From: Kiritimatiellia bacterium
Lineage (GTDB): Bacteria > Verrucomicrobiota > Kiritimatiellia > RFP12 > UBA1067
Length of the DNA stretch: 64,000 nucleotides
NCBI GenBank assembly: GCA_045627925.1
Contig: JAZQOS010000021.1
Location: forward strand, 75,469 to 139,468
Direction of reading: 5' to 3'
Shown here: in pieces, positions 1-48,093 of the stretch
Numbering within the stretch: position 1 is the stretch's first letter
Layout of the letters: every line of letters begins with the position of its first letter
Notes under the pieces: generated by a model
Database searches by the model: none
Seen by the model: only the letters and a program-made list of their open reading frames with translations
Told to the model about the DNA's origin: nothing
Position numbers and translations under genes: made by a program

Positions 1-3000
1 CCGTTCTCCCCTTCACCAGCGAGAATGAGCGTGACGTTAGCTGGGAAGTCCGTGAACTGGCTCATCCAGATTTCCGGCAATGTGTCATTCGGTTTCGTCG
101 CAACAAGACGCACTTCAACTGGCACGGGAACATACGGAACGAGCGACGTGCCATTCGCCGCCGTAAGCGTAATCGCACCTTCGCCGACCGTACCATTACC
201 GACGACTACCTGATCCGCCACCTCCATCGCCGCGACCGTCGCCTTGCGGTCCGCCGTTACGTAAAGTTCGCCCGCCTTATCGCCGATCTTCTGATCGAGA
301 ATCGTGCCCGCCGGAAGCGTCATCTCGACGGGACCCTTCAGCGTCCAACCCGAGACATCGAGCGTTTCCGCCGCCTCGTTGCGGATAACGACGGCCCTAA
401 GCGTCGCATCGTACTTGGCCGTAACCAACCCGCCAAATGCCACGAGTTCGCTCTGCTTGTCGGGGATGCCGGCGGAGAGGCGATTATTGTAACCGACGCC
501 CTTCTCCGTGTTGTGGATGGAGTGTGTCTCGAAAAGATGAACGCGACGCGGTTCGACATAATTGTTCCAAAGATCTTCAATGCCCATCGTCGGCGTCATC
601 GATGCGACATTCGGCCAGCAGTTCATTGAGTCGTTCTGGAAGTTGTAGATACCCGAAAGCGGCCACTTCTTGCGGTCCACTGCTGCGAGTTCAGCCGTCG
701 CGTTGGTAATCGTCGCGATGTAACCCCAAAGCTTCGAGTTCTCACGCGCCGTACCAGGCGCTTCGAGAATCTCATCCATCAGCGTACGGAGACGCCGGAG
801 ATAGAGACGACGGAACTTCGGGCTCTGATAAATGGACTCAAGTCCACCGTTTGACCCATAGCCCTGAACCGATCCGTCAAACGAATAGCTATGCGCCTGC
901 ACGCGACGTCCACCGTAGAACGGATGCGACTTGAAGAAATCCACATCCGCACGGATACCGTTCTTACCATCATGACAGAAGAACGCGCCGAAGGAGAGGT
1001 GGCAGTCGTATGCGAGCGGCATCCAGGTGCCGGTCCCGTTAACGTCATAGTAGAGCGAGATATTGGACCACGTATCGTCCGTCTCGGACGTGATGCGCGT
1101 CATCGCCATATAGTTGAGCCACGCTGGAAGATCGAAAATATTGACGACGTTCTGTGTATACTTCGCGTCTTCATTCTCCGCCGTCATTTGTTCGTCATTT
1201 CTATTCCCAGGAAGAGTATTCTCAAATGCCTTCTCGACTTCAATATCGCTCTCGTTCTCGTCGTCTGGTGTCTTCTTTTCGGTCGTAATGGACGAGTTAT
1301 GGCCGGGCTGGATGGTGCCGCAATTCTTGAACGCATAGCCGAGCGGATCAAGCCCATAAACATCTTCAATGAGTTCATCCGTGAAGCGGTTAGAGTTCCA
1401 AGCGAGCTGATAAAACTCGCCGTTCAGGTTGAGCTTCACCGGATAGTCATACGGCGCTTTTGCTCCCGCCTCACGGAAGAGCCAGAACGAAAGCGACTGA
1501 CGAATGTAGGCGGGGTCCATGTAGTCCGCAACGAACGAGGTCTTGCGGATTTCCTCGAACACCGTTCCTGTTACCGGATCCGTGCACGAAAGCGGCTGCG
1601 CCTTGGAGAACCTGAGACCGTGCGACTTCTTCGGGAAACGCGCCGTCGTGTTGCCTCTCAAATCGATGCGGACGTTGTCGTAGTAGAGTCCCGTCAGTGC
1701 ATCGTAGATGCCGACGCGCGCGTTGTAGGGAACGACCGACTTGTCCTGTTTATCGACATCGACATCCATCTGCTTAAGCGATGCGTCATCCGCGAAGAGA
1801 TAGAACGTCTGCACCTTCGCATCCGTCATACCCTCGGCTGGCTCGACAATCGTACCGTACCACTCGTAGCCGTCATCGGGATTTTGGAAACTTGGCGCAC
1901 GAAACTCGCGACCCGCCTTGTCGGTAATTGCGACGGCGAAGCGGACAAGCTCGCCAGCAGTAGTGAACGCCGCGCCAGGAATCGTTCCCGTATAAACCCA
2001 GCCGTTCATCTTATCCTTCGTCGCGCACTTCGTCATCGCCGTCTCGTTCGTCTGAACCAGCCCGAAGCCAATCTGATAGATAAGCTTGACCTCTGCGATT
2101 TGATCCTCGGCCGCCTCGCTCATATCGGCCGGAAGAATCGGCAGCGTCACCGTATAGTCCTCGCCGATCTTCGCCTGATTGAACGCCTGCCATGGATCGG
2201 GCGCGTCCTTAATGCCATAAAGCGGGCTGATCGTCGGGCGACGATCTGCCGCCGCATCGTAGATGACCTCGTCCGCGAGATCGACCGGCACGAGCACGGT
2301 CTGCTGAACGGCACCGGCCTTGTAGAGCCGAACCATTGGATACTTCTTCTGGTTGATCTTCTTTGCGTAGAGCGGCGTTGCTTCGGCAGGCAACACCTCA
2401 ACTGGCGACTCGCTCGTCCAAACCTTGAATGTTTCACCAACGCCAAGCGTGCCCACCGACAAGGTGAACGCCTCTTCCAGTTTCAGCTTCTTGCCTCGAT
2501 TCACGCAGTAGACCTTGTAATCCGAAAGTTCAAGCGGCTTTCCGCCCACATTCTCAAGGAGAATCCAACCGAGATCTTTCGCCTCGGGAACATTTGGCTG
2601 ACAACGCGCGCAAATCTTGGTGATTACCAGTTCACCCGGCGGCACGTCATCGATGTAAAGATCGTGGAATCCAGTCGCGAACTCTTCGCTCGGCGGCTCC
2701 GTCGTCGCCGTTGGCAGCTTGGCCGGATCAATACCCGGCGTAAAGAAGAAAAGCGATATCTTATCGACGTCCAGCTCAGGAATCTTCGCCCAAACGCGTG
2801 TATTAAACTTGCCCGCCTTGCCGTCCAGCTCAACGAATTTATCGCTCCAATCCGTTGCCAAAACTCCATCCGCCGTATAAGCGAGACCGCCTTCGTAGTG
2901 GAACGACGAATTCGGTCCGCCAATTGCGATTACGTTGCCGCCCTCGACGGTAATCGTGCGGCCAACGTTCACGTCAAGTCCAGTCGAGCCATTGTCATCG

Positions 3001-6000
3001 TCCTCAACCGCCGTCGTATAGGCAAGAATGTTTCCTCCCGTGATGATGATATCGCCATTCGAGTCGATAACATCGTTTCCAAGCGAAACGCCATAGAAGT
3101 TTCCGCCCGTGATAACGACATTGCGCGCCGTATTTACCGACTTAGGGTCGTTAACCGCGTCGTTACCCGCCGACTTCACGCAATCATCACCCGCGAGCAA
3201 GTTGAACGTGCCGCCGTTGATCGTGAGTGTCAAATCCTTCTCGCTGGGATCGTCCGTCGTCGTGAAGATCTGCGAACCCGCACCGGGAACGGAGATATCG
3301 AATGTTCCGCCGTTCACGGTAAGCATCTTTCCAGACTCAAAGACCGTCGCATCAATTGCGTCTTTACCGCCCTCAACGTTGCAGACATAGCCGTCCTCGA
3401 AGACGATTGTGCCGCCATTCAGGACCTTCGCGCCCGTACCCTCAATCGAAACATCCATCGTGCCGCCCGAAAGCGTGACCGCGTCCGAACCCTTAAACTT
3501 GAATGCGCTCGCCTTCTTACCACCAAGCGTCGCCGTAAACGCACCAGCTTCGAAGTCGGCGGACATCTTCTTGTTTATAAGTTCAATGCCGTAGGGCTGA
3601 TTGCCAGCTAAAGTCATATCGAGTTTGCCATCACCTGAAAGGCCGAAATTACCAGAGAGAGAAACCGCAGCAACCTTGTTGGTAGAATCTGGAACCGCGA
3701 CATCAATCGCAAACGTTCCCTTGGTGATATAAAGATCTTTCGCGGTAAAGAGCGGCTCGGTGATGTTCTCACCTGTAAGTTCAAAGCGTCCCTTGCCTAC
3801 AAAGGTAATCGACGCACCTGCACCCGAGACAAACGCAGCCGTATTGACCGAAGTCGATCCATCGTTCTTAATCGTATATTCGCCAGCGGGAAGTTCAAGT
3901 CCACCCAAGAAGTTCGCATTCGCAAAGTTGTAGGTATAGCCCGGCGCGAGCGTAATCTTCTCCGTCACATTCGTGTTCGCCCAATTGAGATCGACCGGCG
4001 GAGGTGGAGGCGGAGGTTCGTAACCCGGTGCTTCGGTAATGAGAATCGCATGCCACTCGTCCGTCTCAAGATTGTGGACGGCCATCTTGCCGCTCCCCTT
4101 CGCGCCGATGATCGCCACCTGATCAAGATTGCTGAAGTGCTCAATCTCGATGCCCTTCGCGTCGGTGAGGACGATTTCCTGGAAGCCGTCCGTAATCTTC
4201 GTCCACGGCACGTCCGCCTGATTAAAGCGCACCCAACCGCCCGCCTCAATAATCGTTCCCGCTGGAAGATCAAAACTGCAACGGCCCTCCGGCGTTGCAC
4301 CATACTTCTCAAACTGAATATGCGCACCGCTCGCATCAAGCGTAGCTTCTTGGTTGAGGTTCGTGAAGACGATGAATTCGTTTGCATCCGTTCCTTCCGC
4401 ACCGTCCGGCGCACCCGCGAAGCCCCAAAGCCGCAGATACTTCTCCTGCTCGCTCTTCTCCACGGCCAGAACATCAGTTCCGTCGGATGCCACCAGCCCA
4501 ATTTCCTCGGCGCCTCCCGCCGTACCGTTGGCAACAATCACCTGATCAAGAAGATTGTCGCCGAATGCCGCTATCGTCGCGCGACGATCCACCGCCACAT
4601 ACACCTCGCCCGGCACGCCGTCAACCGCCATATCAATTACCGTGCCTTCGGGAAGCGTCAGGTTGACCGGACCTGAAAGCTTCCAATTGGAAAGATCAAT
4701 CGCCTCGTCGTTCGCGCTGCGAATAACTACCGCGCCAAGCGTCTCATCGTATTCCGCGGAAAAGCCCGCCTTCAGCTCCTTAACCGCCGTCTGCGCCTCC
4801 GGGATGCCAGCAATCAACTTCTCGCCGTAGCCAATCTGTTCGGCGGCGTGTCCTTCGGCGGCGTGCGTTTCGTAGAGATGGACGCGGCGCGGGACAATGT
4901 AGTTATCCCAAATATCCGCCATCGCCTCCTCAATCGTCTTCGGATAATTATTGCCCCACACGTTGACATTGCTCGCACCGTTGCAATAACCCCACTGCGC
5001 ATGATCCTTTTCGGCCTCAACGCTCATCATTCCCGCCATCTTGCGCATCTGCACGAGGAAGTTGATGGTGCTCGTCTGCCAAGTCTCCTCGCCCGTCGTA
5101 TCGGGCGCGCCAAGCTCCTCATCCATCAGCGTTCTTACGCGCCGGAGGAAGAGGCGGCGGAATTTCTCGCTCTGGAAGATCGCCTCGTAGGCGCGGTTCT
5201 GATTGCCATACGCATCGCCTTTCTCACCCCTATGTGCGCGAACCACATAGCCACCATAAAACGGATGCGACTTAAACCAATCCTGATTGGACATAAGCCC
5301 ATAGAACGAACTATAGTCCGCATGATGCCACTGTCCGAAGGTAAGCTGCATATCGTAGGCGAGCGGACGCCAGGTACCCGTCGATCCCGACCGGATGCCG
5401 TCAATAAGCTGCGGATTGTCGTAGTAGCCCGAGAGGTTCGCCCACACATCATCGCACTCTTGGGTAATCTTGGTGAGCGCCATATAGTTAATCCAAGCGG
5501 GAAGATCCATCTTCTCAACCACGACCTTCGTATATTTCGCTTTATCTGCATCGCTGGTAACTATTGCCGTCGGCAAGGTACTGCAAAATGCGTTCAACAC
5601 CGAAAGGTCGGCCTCATTGCCATCATCCGGCGTCTTCTTCTCGATACCACCAGCCGTAGTACCATTGCCGAACGAGCCGATGTTCTTATAGCCGTAGCCG
5701 AGCGGATCAAGTCTGTAGCAATCCTCGATGAGCTCGTCGGTGAAGCGCTCGGAATGGAAGCCAAGCTGATAGAACTCGCCGTTCAGGTTGAGACGAGCCG
5801 GATAATGGAATGGCGCGGGACTGCCATGCTTGTTGAAAAGCCAAAACGCCGTCATCTGTCTGAGGAAGCTCGGATCGCCAAATTCCGCAATAAAGCTCGA
5901 CTTGCGAATCTCGCGCGTCTCGCCCGATACGCAATCAAACGTTGAAAGCGGATGCGTTTTGCCGAACCTCAAGCCGTGGCTCTTCTTATTGAAGCCCTTC

Positions 6001-9000
6001 GAGCTGTTGCCGCGCAAGTCAATGCGCACATTGTCGTAATACTGGCTCGTGGAGGAATCATAGATTACAATGCGTCCACCATAAGGATGGCGCGTGCGAA
6101 GGTCGTCATAGTTCTTATTGCTCATGAACTCGTCGTAGTCGATGTTCATCACCTTCATGTTGCGGTTTTGCGCATTCTTGTCGTCCGCCGTCTCCGCATC
6201 AGCGAAAAGATGGAAGGTGGTGAGCGTTTCCGAAAGCTGATCTTTCGTCGGCTCGACGATCGTTCCGTACCACTCGTAGCCATCGTCCGGTCCGAGGAAC
6301 TGCGGCGCATACCAAACATTGCCGGCCACATCAATGATCTTCGCCTTCCATTGGATGAGATGACCCGCCTCGGGGAAATCGGTGGAAGGAATCGCTACCG
6401 TCCACTGCTGACCATGTCCCGAAACGACCTCGCCCTTCGTCATCTCGACTTCTTTGCGCGTCGCATCGTCGAGATCCGTGCGATAGACGAGATAGACATC
6501 CTCAATCGCGTCCTTTTCACCTCCTCCATAGATCGGATTCACATCGAACGTCACCACATAATCTTCGCCCGGTATCGCCGGCTGGGCCGCATTGATGTCC
6601 GAGAAGATATGCTCCACGCCATAGAGCGGACCTACCTCTGGGCCAATTGCCGCCAACTTGGAGCCGACCTTAAGATAATGGCGCGTCGCTCCGCCCAGCA
6701 CCGTCTCGTCCAACGGCTCGACGATAATCGTCGCATCGTCCGGAGTATCACAGGGAATAACCACCGAACAAATCGTCTCGCCACCCTTCGCAAGCGTAAC
6801 CATCGGATACTTCTTTGGATTGACCTTCGCCGGATAGACGAGTACGCCTTTAATCTCCGCCGTCGCGTCTGCCGTCATCTTCGGCTCGGTGAACATAAGG
6901 TCATCACCTTCAACGTATCCTTCAGTCGTATAGAAGCGCACCTTGCCGCCAGGTGCCACCACGCGCGCCGGCAACGCAAGCAGCTTCTTAGCTTTCATCT
7001 CCTTGCCACGATTGAATCGTCCGAACGAGTATTCAGAGAGTTCCGCCCAGCCCGTTCCGATGTTGACCAGCTCCACCCAACCGGCTTCAACGCCGTTTGG
7101 ATCCTTCGCCGTCGGTTTAGGACAAATCTCGGCAATGGTCAGCGCTCCGCCTTCCATAAGCCGCGAAACGGTAATCGCGCCATCTTCGCCTTCGGCAAGC
7201 TCGACCGCATATTGCGTGAGATCAACTTCTTCGCTGTCCAAGATCAGCTTACCATTTATGTATGAAAGTCGCGTTGCATCGACAATCTTCAAAACCGCAC
7301 CATCCGCTTGAATATTCGCAAACGCCATTTTGAGCGTCGGATATGCCTTGTCGCCAATGGTGAGAAGCGTGTAAGTGTTGATGGCCTTGACCGAGGTTTC
7401 ATCGATCTGGATTTCCCAGTTTTCGTCCGTGCCGTCGACGAGTGCGAACTTCTCCGCCGTCACTGTAGTCTTTGCATTTAAAAGCGTAATCTCATTAGCT
7501 GCCGACTTTAACGCTTCACTAATGTCAAAGGTAATCTTCCCGCTCTTAATCGCGAAACCAGTCCCGCCGGAAATCGTCTCGCCATTCGGGCCAACTTTAA
7601 CCGTGAGATTGTTCGGGAGCGTTGTCCCGTTCCGAAGAACGATTGCGCCCTCTTGAATGTCGAGCGTACCGCCGCCCGTAAATGTCGCCTCGGCAATAAA
7701 GAACTTGCCCGCGCCGAGCTTGGTGAGCTTATTTCCGCCAAGCTTGAATTCCTGCGAACCATATTTGCTCGCAATCGTACCGAAATCGCTCTGTGCATCG
7801 ATGAACGAATCGGCGGCAACTTCCAGATTCCAAAATTGAGCCTTGCCGTCGCCAACGGCCGTACCATAATTGGCGAGCGTACCACCATTGAGGACAATTG
7901 GATATGTTATGTTCGGGACGCCATTCACGTCAAAGGTGCCGCCCTCATCGATAGAGAGCTCTGTCGTCACATTACCCGCACTGGCAATCTGCAAGACCGC
8001 GCCATTCTTGACGCGCAATGTCCCAACTGCTCGCGCGAGCATAACCGCGCAATCGCCATCAATTATGATCTCATCACCGCTTATGTACTTAACATCGTTA
8101 CCCTCGCCATCTTCAAACACCGTCGCACCATCGATCGTGCCATCCCCGCCCTTCCAATAGATTGTCGTCGGCTCACGCGTTGGTTCAGGCTCAACATATT
8201 TTTCTGCAACAATCTTATAGGCCGCTCTCCACGCCTCCGTTGAGGTATTGAGCGTAACATAACTATACTTTGGATCAGTCGTCTTGAAGAGGCGAATGCG
8301 AAGCGTGTCTCCTGCTCCGCTGCCCTGAACTGTTCCCATCGTCGCTAATTCGCCAACTGTGATGATTGCATCTTCAGAAAAAGTATATTCAATCTTATCA
8401 CCGAGCGACCACGCCTCAAGTTTCTGATTGTTGTTGTTACGACTATTAGATGAAACACTATTAAGTGTCACAAACTCGGCACTCTTGTTCCAAGTATTTC
8501 CTGATTCTTGTGCAAAGGTCACACTCTTGATGCGCAACTTAGTGCCAGCTGGTAAATCGCTCGAAGCTGGAATCGTCATTGACACTGGCTTGTAGTTGCC
8601 CACCCCTTTACTATCAATCGCCGTGCAGTCCGTATTCTCAAAAACATACTCACTTGGTCCCTCCGTGCCATCAACAATCACAATCGCCGCAATACATCCA
8701 CGATATCCTGCGTTGTTATTTCCATATCCCTTGACAGTGAGATTGCCGGAAAGTCCATTCACCCGCAAGGCATTTGTGCCGTAAGCTGCAGTTGACGATT
8801 GCGACGTTCCCCAAGTAGAATCCCCTTCGACCGTTTCGCCACTTGCATAAGTGTAGCGTTTCCCATTGATCTCTGGCGCACCAAACTTCTTATTTCCCGC
8901 GTCCGTCGCCGCGTAGAAGATGACGTCGTACTTGGCGAACGGAATATTGGAAACTGTTACCGCCGCTCCGTCATTGCTATCATCAAGATAACCATTCAAA

Positions 9001-10171
9001 ATCTTCGCCGTCATATCCTTATATGACCAGACATTCGCCGAGGTCCACTTGACGGTCGCCGCGCGAGAGGCATCAACTGTTTGCGATGCAACGTCGTAGA
9101 CATTCGCCGTTTCCGCTCCGTTTTTATCTTCTACCTGAAGCCACGCCGCTACCGGGATCGTATAATCCAATGCGCCAGAATCGCTTCCTGTAATTCGATT
9201 TTTTTCATCACCAGAATAAATAACTTGCCCTTGTTGATTAATCTGCTTTGCAGATGAATTAAAGTTAATCGCAATAATACCTTTAGCCGCAGAAGGGTCT
9301 ACTACTGGATCGCCTCCACCTTGGGCATTGCCCTCGACCCACTTGATGACGATTGCGCTACCACTGTCGGATACGCAATATGTTCCAATTGGATCGCTCG
9401 TACTGACATCAGCATTTGAGTCCTTGTGCGTCATTGCGGTTCCGTTGACATCGGTAGCAACTGTTGCATTCAGATAAAAACTTGCGCTCTTCCCTCCATA
9501 TGAAAGCAAGGTGCGCGAGGATACCTTTCGTGTCGTTGCTTTAGGATTCGACACGGAGACCTTTACACTTGAGAATCTAACGTTTATGGCGTTTCCAACC
9601 GAGCCATTGACTTTTATCGATCCCTTTTCACCCAAGTAGCATGTCCATTGATTATATTTTCCACTAGGCTGATTAAGGCTCGCGAAAACAATACCTTCTG
9701 GAGCGTCAACATGGAATTCCGTCGGACATTCCATTGATCCCGATCCCCATCCATTTACAATCAACTTTGAAGTATCATCAACATAAAATTGACAAACCGA
9801 TGCCTTGTCCTTCTGCAACCTAACCAATGTATCAATCGTGAGTTTTACGTGGTTCGCAATTCCAATTTGGGCATCCAGCCCTTCCATTTGCGAGAGCGAT
9901 ACACTTTTATAGCCATCGTTTCCCGCCGCTAACGCAATATTGTTTCCGTCCAGCAAACACGATTCATACGATGATTCATTCGTATACGGCGTAGCTTGAG
10001 GCGCCTTGGGATTCTTGTAATTCTCCCAATTGGAGTCTAACTCCCAACTTGCGCTGTGCGTACCGACAAATACATTTGTCCAATTGCGACCAAACGCACT
10101 CGCCGCATGCGCGACATTCCCACCGAGCGCCAGCGCGAGCGCGCCGACGAGAAGGTTCCGGAATATATTCA
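1..10171 (-). CDS. Giant secreted protein, C-terminus beyond the window (more than 3380 aa). Signal peptide, then repeated Cthe_2159-like beta-helix modules and two CotH (atypical kinase)-like domains; the distal ~3.6 kb is paralogous to the next gene
   Basis: ATG at 10171 preceded by GAGGAAGAG RBS, and a signal peptide MNIFRNLLVGALALALGG. Spot-translated segments give CotH-like motifs (RPLAYDMQLTFGQW, SHPFYGGYVVRAH) and beta-helix repeats (TINGGTFNLLAGDDCVKSAGND). No minus-strand stop-bounded ORF fragments appear in the six-frame track for 1-10170, consistent with one open frame that runs off the window edge. Plus-strand ORFs 891..3611 and 10966..12420 are mutually paralogous antisense shadows. 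Confidence 0.7.
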
Positions 10172-10182
10172 TCTCTTCCTCC

Positions 10183-13100
10183 TTACCTTACTAAAATCAT
10201 GGGTGCGTGCCGCATAATTGACATTCCACCCACTTTAAGCTCTGGCATTCCCTTACCCGCCGCGCCATTGCCGACGACGACTTGATCCGTTACCGTCATC
10301 GCCTCAATCGTCGCCTTGCGATCAGCCGTTATGTAAAGCTCGCCCTCGACTCCTTCAATCTTCTGGTCGAGAATCGTGCCCGCCGGAAGCGTCATCTCAA
10401 CTGGCCCGGTAAGTACCGCTCCCGAAAGATCGATGGTTTCCTCATTCGCGTTCTTAATAACCACCGCCTGAAGAAGACTATCATACGTAACGGTGATATT
10501 CTTCTTGAGTACCGACATATCACTTTGCTTGTCGGGGATGCCGGCGGAGAGACGATTGTTGTAGCCAACGCCCTTCGCAGTATTGTGAACAGAGTGTGTC
10601 TCGAAAAGATGAACGCGGCGCGGCACGATGTAGTTGTTCCAAAGATCGTCGATACCCATCGTCGGCGTCATCGACGCGACAGTCGGCCAGCAGTTCATCG
10701 ACTCATTTTGGAAGTTGAAACTCTTACCATCAAACGTACCTTCAAACGGCCACTTCGCGCGATCCGCCGCTGCGAGGTCTGCCGTCGCGTCGGTGATGAG
10801 TTTGATATACGCGCCGATCTTCGAGTCTTCCCGTGCCGTGCCGGGCGCTTCGAGAATCTCGTCCATGAGCGTACGGAGACGCCTGAGATATAGACGACGG
10901 AACTTCGGGCTCTGATAGATGGACTCAAGCCCGCTATTGCTCGCCGAGCCGCCGCCCATACCCATGTGTGCACCACCCCAGCCGCCTTCTTCCGTGCCCT
11001 TGTTGTGGGCCGGTACACGCCAACCACCGTAGAACGGATGGGACTTGAAGTAGTCCGCATCGGCTCTCACGCCCTCCTTCGCGTCATGGCAGAAGAATGC
11101 GCCAAACGAAAGGTGGCAGTCATAGGCGAGCGGCATCCACGTGCCCGTATTGTTGATATCGTAATAAAGCGAAATGTTCGCCCACGTATCGTCCGTCTCG
11201 GACGTAATGCGCGTCATCGCCATATAGTTGAGCCACGCCGGAAGATCGAAGGTCTTAACGACGACCTCGTTGTACGTCGCGTTATTCTCACCATCATCGA
11301 TCATCGTCTCATAGTTCGCACGGTCAGGCAGGGAGTTCTCAAACTCATACAACTTGGCGAGCGCAACATCTCCAACTTCGACGCCATCATCCGGCGTCTT
11401 CTTCTCCGTCGTAATCGACGAGCGATGTCCCGGCTGAATCGTGCCGCAATTCTTAAATCCATAGCCGAGCGGATCGAGTCCGTACACGTCTTCGATAAGT
11501 TCATCCGTGAAGCGGTTCGAGTTCCAAGCGAGCTGATAGAACTCGCCGTTCAGATTGAGCTTCACCGGATAGTCATACGGCGCTTTTGCCCCCGCCTCGC
11601 GGAACACCCAGAAGGAGAGCGACTGACGAATGTACGCGGGGTCCATGTAGTCCGCAACGAACGAGGTCTTGCGGATTTCTTCAAACACCGTTCCCGTGAC
11701 CGGATCGGTGCACGAAAGCGGCTGCGCCTTCGAGAACCTGAGCCCGTGCGCCTTCTTCGGGAAGCGTGCCGTCGTGTTGCCGCGAAGGTCGATGCGGACG
11801 TTGTCGTAGTAGAGTCCCGTCAGTGCATCGTAGATGCCGACGCGGGCATTGTAAGGAACGACCGACTTGTTCTGGCTATCGACATCCTTGTCCATCTCGC
11901 CAAGCGACGCGTTATCCGCGAAAAGATAGAACGTCTGCACCTTCGCATCCGTCATGCCCTCGGCTGGCTCGACAATCGTACCGTACCATTCGTAGCCATC
12001 ATCCTTATTTTGGAAGCTTGGCGCACGGAAAGTGCGACCGTCATTGTCGGTAATCGCGACCGCGAAGCGAACAAGCTCGCCAGCAGTAGTGAACGCCGAG
12101 CCGGGGATCGTTCCCGTGTAAACCCAGCCGTTCATCTTATCCTTCTCCGCGCTCTTCGTCATTGCCGTCTCATTCGTCTGAACCAGCCCGAAGCCAATCT
12201 GATAGATAAGATGCGCCTCTGCGATTTGATCCTCGGCCGCCTCGCTCATATCGGCAGGAAGAATCGGCAGCGTCACCGTATAGTTCTCGCCGATCTTCGC
12301 CTGATCAAACGCCTGCCACGGATCGGGCGCGTCCTTTACGCCGTAAAGCGGGCTGATCGTCGGACGACGATCGGTCGCCACATTATGAACAGCTTCATCC
12401 GCGAGATCAACCGGCACTAATACCGTCTGCGTGACCGTACCCCCTTTATAAAGCTGAATCATCGGATACTTCTTCTGATTGATCTTCTTTGCGTAGAGCG
12501 GCGTAGCATCGTCCGGCAGCGCCTCGACGGGCGACTCGCTCGTCCAAACCTTGAACGTTTCTCCAACCTCAAGCGTACCCACCGGCAAAATAAACGCTTC
12601 CGAAACTTTTAGGCTCTTACCGCGATTCGTACAAAGAATCTTGTGCTCCGAAAGTTCAAGTGGGGCGTTTCCGACATTTTCCATCACAATCCAACCAAGA
12701 TCTTTCGCCTCGGGAACATTTGGCTGGCAACGTGCGCAAACCTTGGTGATAACCAATTTTCCCGCCTCAACAGGAATGTCGAGATAGAGATCGTGAAAGT
12801 CCGTGGCATATTCGGAGCTTGGCGCTGTAGAGGAAATCGTCGGAAGAGTAGATTTATCAATCCCGCGAGTATAGGCAAAAAGCGAAATCGTCTCGGCATC
12901 AAGCGCAGGGAGTTTCGCCCAGACATGCGTTTCTATGTCATTCATACTTCCGGTAATACCCAAAAACCGCTCGCTGTAAGTTGCCGCGCTCAGCTTCTCT
13001 GTGGTATAAGCATCGCTTTCACTATAGAAGCTGGAATTAGGTCCGCCGATGGCAATTACGTTGCCGCCGGTAATCGTAATTGCATATCCCTCATTCACAT

Positions 13101-14187
13101 CAAGACCAGTCGAACCATTGCCATCGTCCTCTACCGCCGTCGTATAGGCAAGGATATTGCCGCCCGTGATGATAATATTACCATTCGAGTCGATAACGTC
13201 GTTACCGAGCGAGACACCGTAGAAGTTACCGCCAGAGATGACGACATTGCGCGCCGTATTCTCCGATTCAGGATTGGTAGCCGCGTCATTACCCGCCGAC
13301 TTGACGCAATCGTCACCCGCGAGCAAGTTGAAGGTTCCACCGTTGATCGTCAAGGTCAAATCTTTCTCAGTATGATCGTCCGCAGTCGTGAAGATCTGTG
13401 AACCCGCACCGGGGACGGAAATATCAAACACTCCGCCATTTACGGTAAGCGTCTTACCGGCTTCGAAGACCGTTGCGTCGATTGCGTCTTTATCGCCTTC
13501 GATGTTGCAAACATAGCCATCCTCGAACACGATGGTGCCGCCATTCAGCACTTTCGCGCCCGTCCCTTCAATCGCAACCTCCATCGTGCCACCCGAAAGC
13601 GTGACCGCGTCCGATCCCTTGAACTTGAACGCCGACGCATCCGTGCCGCCCAGCGTCGCCGTGAAGGTTCCGCCCGCGAAGTCTGCTTTCATCTTCTTAT
13701 TAGTCAATTCAATGCCATACGGCTGCGTGCCAGCAAGCGACATCGTGAGCGTGCCCTCGCCCGAAAGCCCGAAGTTGCCTGAAAGCGAAACCGCCGCGGC
13801 CTTCTCAATCGCGCTCGATACATTAATCGCGAAAGTGCCCTTGGTGATATAGAGATCTTGAGCTGTGAAAATCGGTTCGGTTATATCTGCTCCTGTAATC
13901 TCGAACTTACCCTTGCCAATGAAAGTGATGCTTGCGCCAGCCGCCGAGACGAACGCTGCCGTATTAACAGAATCCTTGCCGTCGTTCTTAATTATGTATT
14001 CGCCAGCAGAAAGCTCCAAACCACCCTTGAAGTTCGCATTAGCGAAGTTATTGGTGACGAGCGGGCCTGGCATGAGCGTCTGTTTCTCAGCATAATCACC
14101 AGCCCAATTTATTTCTTCTGCCCAAACAACACTCGCGCCAAGCGTCAGCGCAACTGCGCCCACGAAGAATTTATGTAATGTATTCAT
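10183..14187 (-). CDS. Secreted 1334-aa protein: Cthe_2159-like beta-helix (carbohydrate-binding) domain plus CotH kinase-like domain; C-terminal tail HAPMILVR
   Basis: ATG with AAAGGAAAACA RBS and a signal peptide. Motifs TINGGTFNLLAGDDCVKSAGNDA and ITGGNILAYTTAVEDDGNGSTGLDVN are Cthe_2159-like. PLAYDCHLSFGAFFCHD, NLNGEFYQLAWNSNRFTDELIED and SHPFYGGWRVPAH are CotH-like. 11-nt gap to the downstream gene. Confidence 0.75.
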   Translation of the reverse strand: MNTLHKFFVGAVALTLGASVVWAEEINWAGDYAEKQTLMPGPLVTNNFANANFKGGLELSAGEYIIKNDGKDSVNTAAFVSAAGASITFIGKGKFEITGADITEPIFTAQDLYITKGTFAINVSSAIEKAAAVSLSGNFGLSGEGTLTMSLAGTQPYGIELTNKKMKADFAGGTFTATLGGTDASAFKFKGSDAVTLSGGTMEVAIEGTGAKVLNGGTIVFEDGYVCNIEGDKDAIDATVFEAGKTLTVNGGVFDISVPGAGSQIFTTADDHTEKDLTLTINGGTFNLLAGDDCVKSAGNDAATNPESENTARNVVISGGNFYGVSLGNDVIDSNGNIIITGGNILAYTTAVEDDGNGSTGLDVNEGYAITITGGNVIAIGGPNSSFYSESDAYTTEKLSAATYSERFLGITGSMNDIETHVWAKLPALDAETISLFAYTRGIDKSTLPTISSTAPSSEYATDFHDLYLDIPVEAGKLVITKVCARCQPNVPEAKDLGWIVMENVGNAPLELSEHKILCTNRGKSLKVSEAFILPVGTLEVGETFKVWTSESPVEALPDDATPLYAKKINQKKYPMIQLYKGGTVTQTVLVPVDLADEAVHNVATDRRPTISPLYGVKDAPDPWQAFDQAKIGENYTVTLPILPADMSEAAEDQIAEAHLIYQIGFGLVQTNETAMTKSAEKDKMNGWVYTGTIPGSAFTTAGELVRFAVAITDNDGRTFRAPSFQNKDDGYEWYGTIVEPAEGMTDAKVQTFYLFADNASLGEMDKDVDSQNKSVVPYNARVGIYDALTGLYYDNVRIDLRGNTTARFPKKAHGLRFSKAQPLSCTDPVTGTVFEEIRKTSFVADYMDPAYIRQSLSFWVFREAGAKAPYDYPVKLNLNGEFYQLAWNSNRFTDELIEDVYGLDPLGYGFKNCGTIQPGHRSSITTEKKTPDDGVEVGDVALAKLYEFENSLPDRANYETMIDDGENNATYNEVVVKTFDLPAWLNYMAMTRITSETDDTWANISLYYDINNTGTWMPLAYDCHLSFGAFFCHDAKEGVRADADYFKSHPFYGGWRVPAHNKGTEEGGWGGAHMGMGGGSASNSGLESIYQSPKFRRLYLRRLRTLMDEILEAPGTAREDSKIGAYIKLITDATADLAAADRAKWPFEGTFDGKSFNFQNESMNCWPTVASMTPTMGIDDLWNNYIVPRRVHLFETHSVHNTAKGVGYNNRLSAGIPDKQSDMSVLKKNITVTYDSLLQAVVIKNANEETIDLSGAVLTGPVEMTLPAGTILDQKIEGVEGELYITADRKATIEAMTVTDQVVVGNGAAGKGMPELKVGGMSIMRHAPMILVR

Positions 14188-14209: not shown

Positions 14210-17200
14210 TTACTGCACGAAGAAGAGGAGCCCTGGTTTGAACACCTTGATCGTCTTCGCGCCGGTATCGAAAAGCACCTTGGTCTTGTACGCCTTGTCG
14301 CCGAGGTAAATCGTGCGCTTCACCTTTCCGTTCGGCGCGGACAATGTTCCGCCACAGAGCTTCCGTCCAGTCTCCCACTCGGTCGCCACAAGCCGCAAAA
14401 TCCCATCATCCGAAGTAACATCAAGCCCGACTGCGCTCGGCAAGCCCGTATCCTTGTTAATCGTCAAATCCTTAGCCACAACCACCCCATTGCCTTCCGA
14501 AGCGACATCTCCCGCCGGACTGTACACGAAATTATCCGCAATAAGTTTCGTATTACTGTTGCCAAAATTAAATGTCGTCCCGAAGAACATCACATTCTTT
14601 GCCGTGGAATCGCCCCCCGCGACATGCAAAGTGTCGGAAATTGCAACCATTTCGTTTCCGACAAGCGTGGCGCTATTAAGATTAACGGTTGCGAGTTCGC
14701 CGTCATACACCAACGTTCCGCCCATCAATTGCCAAGTCGGAATATCCGTAAGCTTGCCATCGCTCGCCTCCAAAATTCCCGCGCCATATTTGGTAACTTG
14801 ATTGCCACTATGATCAGAGCCAAGCGCCGTGTCCAAAATTAAGCGCGAATTGGCACCAACGTAAAAAGACATATTCGGCGTACCTTCGCCATTAACATAC
14901 AATCCTCCCGTTCCAAGCTGCTTAATGATTGCCGGCTTATCTGTCATATCGCTTACATTATCTGGAACATAAAATTGAGCTGTAGCGCCGCTACCAGTTC
15001 CACCATTAACTCGAAAATTCGTTCCATTATCGTTAATCGCCAAAGTCGCCCCCGGCTCCAAATAAATCTGTTGAGCCCAATAACAGGTTCCATTAGTTGG
15101 AATAATCTCCGCTGTCGCACCCTCATCAACTCGAATAATGCCATTGGCATTCGACCCTCCCGAAACCCAACCACACAGGTCTTTTACATTAAAAGTCAAA
15201 TACGCGCCACCAGCAACCCGAATTGTTGGATTATCTGCAGTCGCATTTAATCCAAATTTACCGCCAGAATTATTTGCGTCATGCCAACGAGCTTTTATAG
15301 CATGCTTACCGCCATCAAAAACAATATGTGTGGCAAAAGCAATGTTTAACACGGTGGTATCATAGTCTATCGTAACCCCGTTTTCACCTGCGCCCTTGAA
15401 CACGAAGCGCAACTTGTTTCCGGCACTCTTAATTGCATTCCGCAATTCCTCCGTCGCCGCATAGCCACTCTTGACGTTGAACTCGAGCACTATCGACCCG
15501 GAAAGCTGAACGCCCTTGAACAACGAAATCGCATCGGCGAGCCGTTCCTTGCTACTCGAAACAATCACAACATCGCCTTCGCCCTTAAAATAAATGACAT
15601 CGCATTCCGGAAGCTTGTCCAAGGTCAACGTCGGATTTCCCTCGACATTGATCTGCGCCGAGGTTCCCTCGCCCGGCTCTTCGCGTCCAGCCCAAAGTTG
15701 CGACCAGGTCTTGTCTTCTCGCAATGTAGCTTCGGTTTTGGACGACGAGCGATCAATGATCTGCATCGCCGCAATACCCGAAGTACGGGCCCAATAGTGA
15801 ATCTCGAACGTTCCCGTGCAATTTTCGATCCTAACCGCATTGACGCCATAGGCGGCGGTCGCCTGACAACGTTTACCCCACATGCTTGATAGCGTAATGA
15901 CGTCGCTCGCCTTAACTTCCTCCGACGCGGAAAGACCGGTATCGACGGAAAGCACCCCCGTTTCGTCCGGCTTGTAATAATGCTGGGAATTGTATTTGGA
16001 ATTGCCGCTTGTAACGCGAATCGGATCGAACCCGGTTGGCGTTTGGCCTTCAACGGTAGGCGTACCATAATCGCCGGTCGTCTGCTTGGTTCCGCCTTGA
16101 AAGTAAAGAATTACCTCGTAATTGTCATAGGGAATATTCTCCACTTTGAACGATCCTGGAATGCACGAGCGGTCGCGATTCGAAGCCCAGCAAGTCATAT
16201 ACGCACAGGCCGGGTCCGCCATCGCTGGCGTATCGCCACGATCCCAATACGCCCAATTCAATCCAGCTTGGGAATAAACCGTAATGCTAATCGGATCCCC
16301 CAAAGTAACCGTGGACTCGTCAAGTAAGCTATATGCCGTCGTTGAACTGGCGGTAGCCGTTCCGGAAGAGGGTTGGCCAACGGTTATCCAGCCATCCTCC
16401 GGAATCTGAACCGAATCCGAAGCCAAGGTGGTTTGCGCTTGGGTAATCGCCGTCCCGTCTTGAAAAACATTGATATTGATCACCTGATCGGTACGCTTCG
16501 GTGGTTCGGGAAATTTATAGGACAAAAGTTCATCATCGGTTTCGTTTCCGGCAAATATCGCCACCTTTGAAATTTGCATTCCGTCCATCAACATCGACCC
16601 ATTATGCCAAAACCCGCCAATGTTAATGCGTTTTACGTCCATCGACGCCTTAAGGTCAGAGTCGGCGGTGAAGATTTTCGTTCCATCGACATACATGTAA
16701 ACACCGGAATTCGCCCCAGGCTTAAACCGCACAACCACACGATGTGTTTCCAACAAATCCGGAAATTGCTGCTGTAGCACTGGTTCATTAGCTCTCTTGC
16801 CTCCGTCCCACACACCAAACGGCAAAGATCCATCTAACATTACACCCATCATATCAGAATTTTTATAACCATTGAGTTTTTCAGCCCATCCTGCATCCTC
16901 TGGTCCTTCTTGTCTTCCGAAATCCACTAATACGCCAGTTTCTGATATTCCATTAATCTCTACTATCGCCGAAACATACGTCTCGGTCACTGCCGGAATG
17001 TGGTAAATCGATAATGGTTTACTATCAACCATGACATACGAACCATCGTGCGCAACGTAGCAGCCCTCGGTGTTGAGAGTCCAACCATTTTGAATGACAA
17101 TGTTGGGATCGTCAAAATCTCCGCTCCACACCGCCACCGGATCCGCCGCCGCCAGTGCGATATTGGCGGCAAGCGCCGACACTCCCACAATCGCCACGCT

Positions 17201-17233
17201 GAGCGCAGCGCGAATATAACTGTGCTTTTTCAT
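14210..17233 (-). CDS. Secreted ~1007-aa protein with an N-terminal LamG/concanavalin-like domain followed by beta-helix-like repeats; first gene of the operon
   Basis: ATG at 17233 (the ORF track starts at the TTG at 17236). Signal peptide MKKHSYIRAALSVAIVGVSALAANIALA. LamG-like stretch HRVVVRFKPGANSGVYMYVDGTKIF. 22-nt gap to the next gene. Confidence 0.65.
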   Translation of the reverse strand: MKKHSYIRAALSVAIVGVSALAANIALAAADPVAVWSGDFDDPNIVIQNGWTLNTEGCYVAHDGSYVMVDSKPLSIYHIPAVTETYVSAIVEINGISETGVLVDFGRQEGPEDAGWAEKLNGYKNSDMMGVMLDGSLPFGVWDGGKRANEPVLQQQFPDLLETHRVVVRFKPGANSGVYMYVDGTKIFTADSDLKASMDVKRINIGGFWHNGSMLMDGMQISKVAIFAGNETDDELLSYKFPEPPKRTDQVININVFQDGTAITQAQTTLASDSVQIPEDGWITVGQPSSGTATASSTTAYSLLDESTVTLGDPISITVYSQAGLNWAYWDRGDTPAMADPACAYMTCWASNRDRSCIPGSFKVENIPYDNYEVILYFQGGTKQTTGDYGTPTVEGQTPTGFDPIRVTSGNSKYNSQHYYKPDETGVLSVDTGLSASEEVKASDVITLSSMWGKRCQATAAYGVNAVRIENCTGTFEIHYWARTSGIAAMQIIDRSSSKTEATLREDKTWSQLWAGREEPGEGTSAQINVEGNPTLTLDKLPECDVIYFKGEGDVVIVSSSKERLADAISLFKGVQLSGSIVLEFNVKSGYAATEELRNAIKSAGNKLRFVFKGAGENGVTIDYDTTVLNIAFATHIVFDGGKHAIKARWHDANNSGGKFGLNATADNPTIRVAGGAYLTFNVKDLCGWVSGGSNANGIIRVDEGATAEIIPTNGTCYWAQQIYLEPGATLAINDNGTNFRVNGGTGSGATAQFYVPDNVSDMTDKPAIIKQLGTGGLYVNGEGTPNMSFYVGANSRLILDTALGSDHSGNQVTKYGAGILEASDGKLTDIPTWQLMGGTLVYDGELATVNLNSATLVGNEMVAISDTLHVAGGDSTAKNVMFFGTTFNFGNSNTKLIADNFVYSPAGDVASEGNGVVVAKDLTINKDTGLPSAVGLDVTSDDGILRLVATEWETGRKLCGGTLSAPNGKVKRTIYLGDKAYKTKVLFDTGAKTIKVFKPGLLFFVQ

Positions 17234-41355: not shown

Positions 41356-41368
41356 GTATTATATCACA
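41356..41368 (-). promoter_or_regulatory. Extended -10 (TGTGATATAATAC) for the tRNA-Thr/tuf transcript, overlapping the last codons of the upstream ATPase gene
   Basis: Reverse complement CACAAGTTTGTGATATAATACGCGAG. Confidence 0.4.
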
Positions 41369-44191: not shown

Positions 44192-44533
44192 TTTTTACCC
44201 GACTATGATGCGCTCTTAATCCCACCCGACAGAAACGCGGCAGAAATTACTCCGACTTTCGGGGTGTGTCCCCGCCCCCAGCCTATCGCCTCAATGGGGT
44301 CGCACCCCACTGTGGCCCCTCCTTTTTTGCCGGGACACACCCTCATTTTCGACTCTTCCGGGAGATGAATAAAATCGAAGGGTGTCTGGTCCGCTTTGCT
44401 ATCCCGGCTGCACGATCCTCTTGCGAGGAAGGGCTCCAGCTACTTCTCCGTGCCTCAGCTGTGTACTTCCGGAGGGTTGCCTTCGACGCCCATTATTCTA
44501 CCACACCAAACTTCTAAAAGGCAATAGCGCGCC

Positions 44534-46890: not shown

Positions 46891-47270
46891 ATCGCAAAAC
46901 AGTCAGACATGAAAAGCGGCACGCCTCTCCACGTCGCTCCGTGGCTCTGGAAAGCCCATAAGAAACGTGAAGAGGCGGCCAGATTGCTGGCACACCTCTG
47001 CAAACACGTCGTCTTATTTGAAATTTTCCAGATTTCGGAGCCGACTTGTCTTGCAGTGATGCAAGTAAATTATTGTGCAGCCAAGGGTGGGCTTTTCGCG
47101 GGACTTTTGCGAACCCGTAGGCTCGACTCCCATCTACTTCGCCAGTTCTATGACCTATGTGGTTCCCCTCGCGGAGAACATGAAATATTATAGCAAAAAT
47201 TTCTTATACTTAGTACATACAGATGTGTTGTTGTTTTTTATGTTTTCTTTTTTTGTCTTGTTTATGTTAG

Positions 47271-47575: not shown

Positions 47576-47584
47576 CCCTATTTT

Positions 47585-47999: not shown

Positions 48000-48093
48000 C
48001 GTAAAATAGCCCGCCTACGCAGTTTCCAAGTCGTAGTTGTAGAAAGGAGGCTTAAAATTCCACTCTACCACTACAACTTGATACTACAACTAT

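What the first reader, a model, noticed from the sequence alone, without database searches (positions are those of the whole stretch)
10183..10215. Conserved C-terminal tail motif shared by secreted proteins of unrelated domain architecture
Four proteins end in near-identical tails. Gene B ends ...RHAPMILVR. The 469-aa C25 homologue ends ...RKAPVITVK. The 3099-aa protein ends ...HRAPRIIVR. The partial giant ends ...SKPITILVR. The consensus is [RK]-x-[AP]-P-x-I-[ITL]-[LIV]-V-[RK]-COOH. At nucleotide level the ends are also similar (atgattttagtaaggtaa, atcatagtcaggtaa). A degraded copy (cgcatcatagtcgggtaa, preceded by an in-frame stop) lies at ~44200. The tail occurs on a CotH protein and on C25/LamG proteins alike. 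It therefore behaves like an independent C-terminal targeting or secretion signal. It resembles none that I know: no TM helix follows, it is not LPXTG, and it is not a PEP-CTERM or T9SS CTD.
Basis: seen in the sequence. Interest (0 to 1): 0.62.

Follow-up and report, generated by a model that had tools for sequence, protein, structure and literature searches.

The report
Short C-terminal tail on secreted proteins
A group of gut-type Kiritimatiellia bacteria end many large exported enzymes and adhesins, whatever their domains, with the same flexible nine-residue tail (basic-basic-Ala/Pro-Pro-Lys/Arg-Ile-Leu-Val-Arg-COOH); it looks like an undescribed address tag for the cell surface, but its function has not been tested.

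Summary
Four minus-strand genes end in I-[ILT]-V-[RK]-stop, the only 4 of 3906 six-frame segments that do (P about 3e-12).

The tail is modular:
- It follows five or more unrelated domain types: gingipain-like C25, CotH+LTD, LamG, S8 subtilase and sulfatase.
- Paralogues that share the preceding domain either stop with the tail or continue into more domains.
- AlphaFold2 models of two families leave it as low-confidence coil.
- The 5-residue core sits at the exact C-terminus in 34 of 37 occurrences.

Fifty non-redundant examples give [RH]-[RHK]-[AP]-P-[KR]-[IV]-[LI]-[VF]-[RK]-COOH. In about 190 kb of lineage DNA, the tail is on 16 of 40 proteins with an N-terminal signal or anchor segment and on 1 of 42 others. 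Distant S8 homologues outside the lineage lack it. No Pfam or NCBIfam sorting-domain model matches, and I found no literature on it.

The closest resemblance is the last strand of type IX secretion C-terminal domains ('KLIKK'), but the folded domain is absent. There is also no transmembrane helix as in PEP-CTERM or LPXTG.

Best reading is a new short linear C-terminal sorting or surface-retention signal, probably bound as an added beta-strand. This function is inferred, not shown.

The 'degraded copy' at about 44200 is a 19-nt target duplication of an inserted restriction-modification island, not a decayed gene.

The parts
10183..10215 (-). The finding itself: stop codon (10183-10185) plus the last 10 codons MRHAPMILVR of gene B. 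The core tail RHAPMILVR is 10186-10212.
10183..14187 (-). Gene B: 1334 aa with a signal peptide and CotH kinase-like and Lamin-tail (LTD) domains. The tail follows 24 residues after the last LTD-like domain.
   Evidence: P0017 is identical and lies on a 200,708-nt NCBI contig.
3..10172 (-). ORF C: more than 3390 aa with a signal peptide and CotH+LTD domains. It is 77% identical to gene B over about 1290 aa. Where B has its tail, C continues into further domains. Its own C-terminus lies outside the window.
14210..17233 (-). Gene A: 1007 aa with a signal peptide and no Pfam hit. It ends ..KPGLLFFVQ, a loose variant of the tail (14213-14239).
42772..44172 (-). Stand-alone gingipain-like C25 peptidase: 466 aa with a signal peptide. 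The tail RKAPVITVK is at 42775-42801. Conserved His301/Cys331 is the candidate catalytic pair, inferred from spacing.
48094..57393 (-). 3099-aa surface protein with a signal peptide, an N-terminal C25-like domain, a long repetitive region and LamG domains. The tail HRAPRIIVR is at 48097-48123, 21 residues after the end of the last LamG match.
57906..64000 (-). Giant protein cut at its N-terminus by the window end (more than 2030 aa). It is 39% identical to residues 734-2749 of the 3099-aa protein. The tail SKPITILVR is at 57909-57935.
44194..44212 (.). It is the distal arm of a target duplication.
48093..48111 (.). The proximal arm of the same direct repeat. It overlaps the stop codon and the last five codons of the 3099-aa gene.

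Best explanation
The tail is a lineage-specific short linear motif at the extreme C-terminus. It marks a subset of Sec-exported proteins for delivery to, or retention at, the cell surface. These are mostly 465 to more than 3000 aa long: proteases, sulfatases, CotH/LamG proteins and adhesin-like giants.

Proposed mechanism:
1. The protein is exported by a normal cleavable signal peptide.
2. The flexible tail stays exposed. It carries a basic patch, an Ala/Pro-Pro kink, Lys/Arg, three beta-branched or aliphatic residues, and a terminal Arg/Lys with a free carboxylate.
3. An unidentified periplasmic or outer-membrane partner binds the tail as an added beta-strand (beta-augmentation plus recognition of the terminal Arg-COOH).
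4. That partner hands the protein to an outer-membrane translocon or anchors it. Cleavage at the conserved P-[KR] site by one of the many co-encoded gingipain-like C25 peptidases may follow, by analogy with the PorU sortase.

Shown: the motif, its modularity, its terminal position, its link with exported proteins, its restriction to the lineage, its disorder in models, and protein-level selection.

Inferred: the sorting function, strand-type recognition, the existence of a partner, and any cleavage.
For: Statistics: 4 of 4 matches fall on long signal-peptide ORFs, P about 3e-12.

Conservation:
- All 16 C25 homologues (38-100% identity) keep the tail behind a linker of variable length.
- 20 of 36 near S8 homologues keep it, against 3 loose chance matches in 84 distant ones.
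- Two of the S8 homologues, P0061 and P0070, lie on the window's own 200,708-nt contig. The source genome therefore has at least 6 tail proteins.

Modularity:
- The last 150 aa of the four window proteins share nothing but the tail.
- Gene B stops with a tail where paralogue C reads on.
- The giant stops with a tail where the 3099-aa protein continues for 350 aa and then carries its own tail.
- The tail follows C25, LTD, LamG, S8, S8+C10 and sulfatase+LamG ends.
- The Pfam LamG match ends 18-21 residues before the C-terminus.

Structure: in the AF2 models of C25 (mean pLDDT 80) and S8 (mean pLDDT 86), the tail is coil with pLDDT about 49-55 after the last structured element.

Position: the 5-mer core occurs 37 times in 92,109 residues, 34 of them at the exact C-terminus.

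Export link:
- 16 of 40 proteins with an N-terminal hydrophobic segment carry the tail, against 1 of 42 without (Fisher 1.8e-5).
- Excluding the genes used to fetch loci, the counts are 8 of 32 against 0 of 41 (8e-4).
- Signal peptides have AxA-type cleavage sites and no lipobox.

Selection: codons differ synonymously between related genes.

Criteria: the tail meets the published criteria for C-terminal sorting signals on terminal location, several per genome, signal peptides and diverse architectures (10.1101/2023.06.07.544157).
Against: - No partner, sorting enzyme or processing event was identified. Gene neighbourhoods show only clusters of tail proteins or housekeeping genes.
- The tail lacks the transmembrane helix of all sortase, exosortase and rhombosortase-type signals. 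It also lacks the folded domain of T9SS signals, so no precedent machinery can be invoked.
- Some S8 members with the tail begin with what looks like an uncleaved signal-anchor. This fits less well with release to the surface.
- Only about 40% of exported proteins in the sample carry it.
- The sample is about 190 kb, partly chosen through tail proteins. It is not a whole proteome.
- Similar proteins in the same clusters end instead in ..GFYRV.. strands.
Confidence: 0.5

Rival explanations
1. Passive surface anchor. The cationic, hydrophobic tail (net charge +3 to +4, with three aliphatic residues) sticks non-covalently to anionic lipopolysaccharide or the outer leaflet after export by some other route. 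No dedicated receptor or sorting enzyme is involved.
For: - Basic residues dominate positions -9, -8, -5 and -1, and hydrophobic residues dominate -4 to -2.
- The tail is flexible and exposed in the models.
- No partner gene was found near the tail genes.
Against: - A charge and hydrophobicity anchor should tolerate shuffling and internal positions. The motif is instead ordered (P at -6, K/R at -5, V/F at -2) and sits at the exact C-terminus in 34 of 37 cases.
- Three hydrophobic residues make a weak membrane anchor.
- The preference for beta-branched Ile and Val points to strand pairing.
Confidence: 0.17
2. Processing or latency peptide. The tail is a recognition site for the co-encoded Arg/Lys-specific C25 peptidases or S8 subtilases. 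Cleavage at P-[KR] would activate the proteins, trigger their turnover or release them, rather than address them.
For: - K/R is conserved at -5 after Pro.
- Tail genes cluster with C25 and S8 peptidase genes.
- The C25 fold matches the Arg- and Lys-gingipains and PorU.
- His and Cys residues at gingipain-like spacing are invariant.
Against: - A four-residue peptide removed from the end of a 3000-aa adhesin, a sulfatase or a LamG protein has no obvious latency role.
- The strict need for the terminal position and for the terminal Arg/Lys is not explained by an internal cleavage site.
- Cleavage is compatible with, and is part of, the sortase-like version of the main explanation.
Confidence: 0.13
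3. Ordinary terminal beta-strand of a shared C-terminal domain. This is the reader's own refuting scenario: the proteins are paralogues that inherited the same domain end.
For: - Some bearers are paralogues: the 3099-aa protein and the giant are 39% identical, and C25 resembles the N-terminus of the 3099-aa protein.
- LamG domains precede several tails.
Against: - There is no similarity in the last 150 aa apart from the tail.
- Paralogue pairs place the tail at non-homologous positions.
- The tail follows five or more unrelated Pfam domains.
- Domain models end 18-21 residues upstream.
- The tail is unstructured in two confident models.
- Linker length varies among close homologues within a family.
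Confidence: 0.04
4. DNA-level element. The conserved 3' ends would be a terminator, an attachment site or a recombination signal, with the peptide incidental.
For:
- A mobile island did insert exactly at the tail-coding end of the 3099-aa gene, duplicating 19 nt.
Against: - Codons for the same residues differ freely: Arg is AGG, CGA or AGA, Ile is ATC, ATT or ATA, and Val is GTC, GTA, GTG or GTT. Stop codons are TAA or TGA.
- Closely related genes differ mostly at synonymous sites.
- The conservation is in amino-acid space across 38-100% identical families.
Confidence: 0.02

Closest known systems
C-terminal motif ('motif C-t.', e.g. K-L-I-K-K) of type IX secretion C-terminal domains in Bacteroidota
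   Same: - Both sit on Sec-exported proteases and adhesins of unrelated architecture.
- Both have a terminal strand with a basic residue, two or three aliphatic residues and a terminal basic residue. Compare KLIKK with KIIVR, RIIVR and KLLVK.
- In T9SS the last residues matter for export (PMC11285876).
- The T9SS sortase PorU is a C25-family peptidase that carries the signal itself. Here a conserved stand-alone C25 peptidase also carries the tail.
   Different: - The T9SS signal is a folded 7-stranded Ig-like domain of about 60-100 aa. Here only about 9 residues are conserved, and they are predicted to be disordered behind unrelated domains.
- There is no Por_Secre_tail hit even at E<=10.
- T9SS tolerates C-terminal extension, whereas this motif is almost always exactly terminal.
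- The lineage is PVC (Kiritimatiellia), while T9SS is described only from Bacteroidota and allies (PMC5445135 abstract).
- Presence of T9SS genes could not be tested.
Tripartite C-terminal sorting signals: LPXTG/sortase, PEP-CTERM/exosortase, GlyGly-CTERM/rhombosortase and MYXO-CTERM/myxosortase
   Same: All are terminal, occur several times per genome, sit on signal-peptide proteins of diverse architecture, start with a proline-containing signature and end basic. These match Haft criteria 1, 2, 6 and 7.
   Different: - There is no transmembrane helix. The tail has 3-5 hydrophobic residues instead of about 20.
- A single terminal Arg/Lys replaces the Arg cluster.
- No NCBIfam model matches.
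- An intramembrane or membrane-bound sorting enzyme therefore cannot act in the known way.
Outer-membrane protein beta-signal and autotransporter C-terminus
   Same: A short C-terminal beta-strand motif read by an outer-membrane machine through strand pairing.
   Different: - The beta-signal ends in an aromatic residue and belongs to a beta-barrel. Here the last residue is Arg or Lys in 50 of 50 tails and no barrel precedes it.
- A genuine outer-membrane protein of the lineage ends in the canonical ..GLGYKW.
C-terminal peptide ligands of PDZ or tail-specific protease domains
   Same: A 4-6 residue extended peptide that needs a free carboxylate, bound by beta-augmentation. This is the physical model I favour.
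   Different: Known periplasmic PDZ ligands end in hydrophobic residues (from general knowledge). This tail ends in Arg or Lys. No PDZ partner was identified.
C-terminal Lys of Braun lipoprotein (Lpp) cross-linked to peptidoglycan
   Same: A terminal basic residue on an exported protein.
   Different: Here 70% of the tails end in Arg, which lacks the primary amine used by L,D-transpeptidases (from general knowledge). The proteins are not lipoproteins.

Membership tests
T9SS C-terminal domain (Por_Secre_tail, TIGR04183 / PF18962) | A folded Ig-like beta-sandwich of about 60-100 aa at the C-terminus | tested here: not met
   - AF2 model of C25: coil after residue 448 of 466.
- AF2 model of S8: coil after residue 505 of 519.
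- The homologous upstream regions are internal in paralogues.
T9SS C-terminal domain (Por_Secre_tail, TIGR04183 / PF18962) | A match to the family HMM | tested here: not met
   No hit in Pfam or NCBIfam, either on the full proteins or on the last 110 aa at E<=10.
T9SS C-terminal domain (Por_Secre_tail, TIGR04183 / PF18962) | A conserved basic/aliphatic motif in the last strand (KLIKK-type) | tested here: inconclusive
   The logo [KR]-[IV]-[LI]-[VF]-[RK] resembles K-L-I-K-K. Five residues cannot establish homology.
T9SS C-terminal domain (Por_Secre_tail, TIGR04183 / PF18962) | The genome encodes T9SS machinery (SprA/Sov, PorV, PorU/Z, GldKLMN) | not testable with these tools
   Only about 190 kb of lineage DNA is held. 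None of these genes is in the window.
Tripartite sorting signals (LPXTG, PEP-CTERM, GlyGly-CTERM, MYXO-CTERM ...) | At the C-terminus, several per genome, with N-terminal signal peptides and varied architectures | tested here: met
   At least 6 bearers lie on the one 200,708-nt source contig.
Tripartite sorting signals (LPXTG, PEP-CTERM, GlyGly-CTERM, MYXO-CTERM ...) | A hydrophobic segment long enough for a transmembrane helix after the signature motif | tested here: not met
   Only 3-5 hydrophobic residues lie between the K/R at -5 and the terminal R/K.
Tripartite sorting signals (LPXTG, PEP-CTERM, GlyGly-CTERM, MYXO-CTERM ...) | A terminal cluster of 2-5 basic residues, and a match to an NCBIfam sorting-domain model | tested here: not met
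   A single terminal R/K and no model hit at E<=10.
Tripartite sorting signals (LPXTG, PEP-CTERM, GlyGly-CTERM, MYXO-CTERM ...) | A co-occurring cognate sorting enzyme | not testable with these tools
   This needs phylogenetic profiling over complete genomes.
Outer-membrane protein beta-signal / autotransporter | A terminal aromatic residue closing a beta-barrel | tested here: not met
   The terminal residue is R (35) or K (15) in 50 tails. No barrel domain is present. A DUF481 outer-membrane protein of the lineage ends ..GYKW.
Type I secretion C-terminal signal | No N-terminal signal peptide, with a C-terminal signal of about 50 aa, often with RTX repeats | tested here: not met
   All complete bearers have N-terminal signal or anchor segments. 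There are no RTX hits.

The most novel reading that the evidence does not exclude
A minimal protein-sorting signal of about nine residues with no transmembrane segment, read at the free C-terminus. Kiritimatiellia (PVC bacteria) would use it to route large Sec-exported enzymes and adhesins across or onto the outer membrane through machinery not yet described. A gingipain-family C25 peptidase may act as a PorU-like sortase. This would be a new class of bacterial C-terminal sorting system, distinct from sortase and exosortase-type signals and from the T9SS domain.
Probability: 0.35. Interest if true: 0.8.

Novelty: new variant of a known kind. Interest (0 to 1): 0.64.

Why it matters
C-terminal sorting signals such as LPXTG, PEP-CTERM and the T9SS C-terminal domain have each led to the discovery of a secretion or anchoring machine. 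They are also used every day to predict surface proteomes.

Kiritimatiellia are abundant polysaccharide and mucin degraders in guts and sediments. How their huge surface enzymes and adhesins reach the cell surface is unknown.

A nine-residue terminal tag would do three things:
- It would give a simple rule for listing the surface and exoproteome of this lineage from sequence alone.
- It would give a handle for finding the responsible machine by co-occurrence.
- It might provide a very small portable tag for surface display.

If the resemblance to the T9SS terminal strand is more than convergence, it would also bear on how that system's signal evolved.

Tried and rejected
- **Exact look-up of window proteins.** Looking up B and the C25 protein in the contig index found nothing. 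The rest of the source genome could therefore not be read, and no whole-proteome census was possible.
- **Metagenome scan.** I scanned for the DNA pattern of A-P-R-I-I-V-[RK]-TAA. Of 40 hits, 39 lay in ORFs under 80 aa. The one 169-aa ORF (L036) overlaps other genes. All are therefore chance matches. This is useful only as a control: by chance the string does not sit at the ends of long ORFs.
- **Homologues of gene B.** Only 10 were found, and few are informative.
- **Literature.** Searches on Kiritimatiellia with secretion or C-terminal terms, on T9SS with Kiritimatiellia, and on the peptide strings themselves found nothing relevant.
- **Partner search by neighbourhood.** The C25 gene sits among housekeeping genes in three genomes. 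Other tail genes cluster with each other. A secretin and a DUF481 outer-membrane protein lie 2 kb from one tail gene, but this is a single case.
- **Rejected: membership of the T9SS C-terminal domain, PEP-CTERM/LPXTG, OMP beta-signal or T1SS families.** See the membership tests.
- **Rejected: Lpp-like peptidoglycan linkage.** Arg dominates the terminal position.
- **Rejected: a DNA-level element.** Codons vary synonymously.
- **Rejected: the ~44200 copy as a decayed gene.** It is a direct repeat flanking an island.
- **TonB-box likeness.** The I/V-rich strand is similar, but I judged this too generic to count as evidence.
Full report
**What is there.**

The window has 53.6% G+C. Its centre is housekeeping: Mur ligase, tRNA-guanine transglycosylase, topoisomerase subunits, an AcrB-type pump, L10/L1/NusG/EF-Tu and four tRNAs. 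Both ends hold very large minus-strand genes for signal-peptide proteins.

The finding's coordinates, 10183-10215, are the stop codon and last ten codons of a 1334-aa CotH+LTD protein ending MRHAPMILVR. Three more proteins end the same way:
- a 466-aa gingipain-like C25 peptidase (42772-44172) ends RKAPVITVK;
- a 3099-aa protein with an N-terminal C25-like domain and LamG domains (48094-57393) ends HRAPRIIVR;
- an N-truncated giant (57906 to the window end) ends SKPITILVR.

**More than chance.**

Across all six frames, I[ILTV]V[RK] before a stop occurs in 4 of 3906 stop-to-stop segments, and these are exactly the four genes. From the composition of the window's own proteins, 0.003 such ends are expected among 25 genes, giving P(>=4) about 3e-12.

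As an external control, I scanned public metagenome contigs for the DNA pattern of A-P-R-I-I-V-[RK]-TAA. It gave 40 hits. Thirty-nine lie in ORFs shorter than 80 aa, and the remaining one is a spurious overlapping ORF. By chance, then, the string does not sit at the ends of long genes.

**Organism.**

The closest genomic relatives are metagenome-assembled genomes labelled 'uncultured Verrucomicrobia bacterium' and 'Kiritimatiellia bacterium'. An S8 homologue is labelled Kiritimatiellae. The window's proteins match NCBI entries on a 200,708-nt contig.

**The tail is conserved by selection on the protein.**

- All 16 homologues of the C25 protein (38-100% identity) keep the tail. The linker between the last conserved element (..FGDPLI..) and the tail varies in length.
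- An exhaustive search with the last 1199 residues of the 3099-aa protein found giants and LamG-repeat proteins ending SPRIIVR, PPRIIIR, ARLFVR, IKLLVK, GKLLVR, GFVVVVR, LRIILR and GFVMVVR. Looser variants include GLIIILQ and GMFVIVN.
- Codons for the same residues differ freely. The tails of the 3099-aa gene and its L003 counterpart differ at five synonymous and two conservative codons out of eleven.
- Fifty non-redundant tails give [RH]-[RHK]-[AP]-P-[KR]-[IV]-[LI]-[VF]-[RK]-COOH, with Arg last in 35 and Lys in 15.

**It is a module, not the end of a domain.**

- The last 150 residues of the four window proteins show no similarity except the tail.
- Gene B is 77% identical to an internal stretch of the neighbouring ORF C (more than 3390 aa). 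After the shared LTD-like domain (..DQVVVGNG), B has 24 residues and the tail, while C reads on into further domains.
- The giant aligns with residues 734-2749 of the 3099-aa protein and then ends ..DGYLKVRIQLSKPITILVR. The 3099-aa protein continues for 350 residues, including a LamG domain, before its own tail.
- In related genomes the tail also closes S8 subtilases, an S8+C10 protease, a sulfatase+LamG protein and LamG-repeat proteins.
- The Pfam LamG match ends 18-21 residues before the C-terminus.
- In AlphaFold2 models of the C25 protein (mean pLDDT 80) and of an S8 protein from the source contig (mean pLDDT 86), the tail is coil with pLDDT about 49-55 after the last structured element.
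- The five-residue core occurs 37 times in 92,109 residues of lineage proteins, 34 of them at the exact C-terminus.

**Which proteins carry it.**

I compiled 82 complete genes from the window and nine related loci, about 190 kb in all.
- The tail is on 16 of 40 proteins with an N-terminal hydrophobic (signal or anchor) segment.
- It is on 1 of 42 without such a segment (Fisher 1.8e-5). That one has a doubtful start codon.
- Leaving out the genes through which loci were fetched gives 8 of 32 against 0 of 41 (8e-4).
- All bearers are at least 465 aa long.
- Small periplasmic proteins, an LpoB lipoprotein, a secretin and a DUF481 outer-membrane protein lack it. The DUF481 protein ends in the canonical ..GLGYKW.
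- The signal peptides have AxA-type cleavage sites and no lipobox.
- Caveat: the sample is small and partly chosen through tail proteins.

**Lineage restriction.**

In the S8 family, 20 of 36 near homologues (39% identity or more) end in the tail, behind a conserved ..GGAAALYxKGAFD and a variable linker of 10-20 residues. Of 84 distant homologues from Bdellovibrionota, Chloroflexota, Bacillota and other groups, 3 match a loose pattern by chance, and none of those has the preceding P-[KR]. Some lineage homologues end instead in a ..GFYRV.. strand followed by a few residues.

**Comparison with known systems.**

- **Database models.** No Pfam or NCBIfam model for any sorting domain matches, whether PEP-CTERM, LPXTG, GlyGly-CTERM, Por_Secre_tail or others. 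This holds on the full proteins and on the last 110 residues at E<=10.
- **Tripartite sorting signals.** Measured against the published criteria, the tail meets terminal location, several copies per genome, signal peptides and diverse architectures. It fails on the transmembrane helix and the Arg cluster.
- **T9SS C-terminal domain.** The nearest resemblance is the conserved terminal motif of these domains, K-L-I-K-K in Tannerella 'KLIKK peptidases', where replacing the last residues blocks export (PMC11285876). However, that signal is a folded seven-stranded domain, it tolerates C-terminal extension, and it is described from Bacteroidota. Here the conserved part is nine disordered residues in a PVC lineage.
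- **A parallel with PorU.** The T9SS sortase PorU is a C25-family peptidase that itself carries the signal. This lineage has a conserved stand-alone C25 peptidase that bears the tail. It has invariant His301 and Cys331 at gingipain-like spacing, and its fold is closest to RgpB, Kgp and PorU. It sits among housekeeping genes in three genomes. I treat this as a lead, not as evidence.

**Most likely mechanism.**

I favour a short linear C-terminal signal. After Sec export, a periplasmic or outer-membrane partner would bind it as an added beta-strand with its terminal Arg/Lys carboxylate. That would lead to surface delivery or retention, possibly with cleavage at the conserved P-[KR] site (confidence about 0.5 for the sorting or retention function).

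The enrichment in beta-branched Ile and Val, the ordered motif and the strict terminal position favour specific strand recognition over a passive cationic anchor (about 0.17). A pure processing or latency peptide (about 0.13), a shared domain strand (about 0.04) and a DNA element (about 0.02) are less likely, for the reasons given under each rival explanation. No step of the mechanism is demonstrated.

**The 'degraded copy'.**

At 44194-44212 lies a 19-nt repeat (18/19) of the 3' end of the 3099-aa gene (48093-48111). The two copies bracket 3.9 kb of low-GC DNA. That segment carries a GmrSD/DUF262-HNH gene, an EcoRI-type adenine methylase and iteron-like tandem repeats. The same gene pair occurs on plasmids of many phyla at about 65% nucleotide identity. 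This is a target duplication left by an inserted island, not a decayed tail-bearing gene.

**Verdict.**

That it is a targeting signal remains a well-founded inference. I found no description of it in the databases or literature available here.

Noticed in passing
window 44194-48111: A 3.9-kb low-GC island is bracketed by a 19-nt direct repeat (18/19) that overlaps the stop and last five codons of the 3099-aa gene. It carries a GmrSD/DUF262-HNH nuclease gene and an EcoRI-type adenine methylase gene, and I saw no integrase. The same gene pair is on plasmids of Phocaeicola, Moraxella, Rhodococcus and others at about 65% nucleotide identity.
   Followed up: partly
window 47251-47350, 47702-47804, 47894-47979: The non-coding part of the island holds iteron-like tandem repeats: four 21-nt units (GTCTCTATTGGAGACT core, itself palindromic), four 22-nt units (CGTTGGGGGTTTTGA..), and three copies of the palindrome AAAAGTGGTATACCACTTT. 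This could be a replication origin or a regulator-binding array.
   Followed up: no
window 3-14187 (minus strand): Gene B (1334 aa) is 77% identical over about 1290 aa to the C-terminal part of the adjacent ORF C (more than 3390 aa). A second, 40%-identical copy of the same CotH+LTD unit lies further upstream in C. This is recent tandem duplication of a CotH module, with a new stop plus tail in B.
   Followed up: partly
L049 genes 1 and 4; P0018, P0020, P0037, P0040, P0041, P0052, P0081, P0084-P0086, P0088, P0090, P0091: The same protein families and gene clusters show a second recurrent ending: ..G-F-[FY]-[RK]-[VM].. followed by 3-10 residues (for example GFYRMLYAP, RFYRVRILE and MFYRVLITDKDPTIK). 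It seems to alternate with the tail. It may be the last strand of a C-terminal beta-sandwich or a second signal.
   Followed up: no
window 42772-44172 and 48094-57393; P0031-P0042, P0053: Gingipain-like C25 domains with conserved His and Cys head many of the 2000-4000-aa adhesin-like giants. They also occur as a conserved stand-alone 466-aa protein next to housekeeping genes in three genomes. The C25 fold matches RgpB, Kgp and PorU.
   Followed up: partly
L002, L003, L049, L050: There is a conserved gene order in related genomes: one or two S8 subtilases, some with an N-terminal signal-anchor instead of a cleavable signal peptide, lie directly upstream of C25-headed giants. All of them carry the tail.
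   Followed up: partly
window 18621-19892 and 41359-42702 (minus strand): Two paralogous AAA_14 + DUF4143 ATPase genes lie in the housekeeping block. One is directly downstream of the C25 gene.
   Followed up: no
L053 10349-12960: In a more distant tail-bearing relative, a secretin gene (Secretin_N + Secretin, 531 aa) and a DUF481 outer-membrane protein gene lie 2 kb downstream of the tail-bearing S8 gene. This is a single observation, and it is the only secretion-type gene seen near any tail gene.
   Followed up: no
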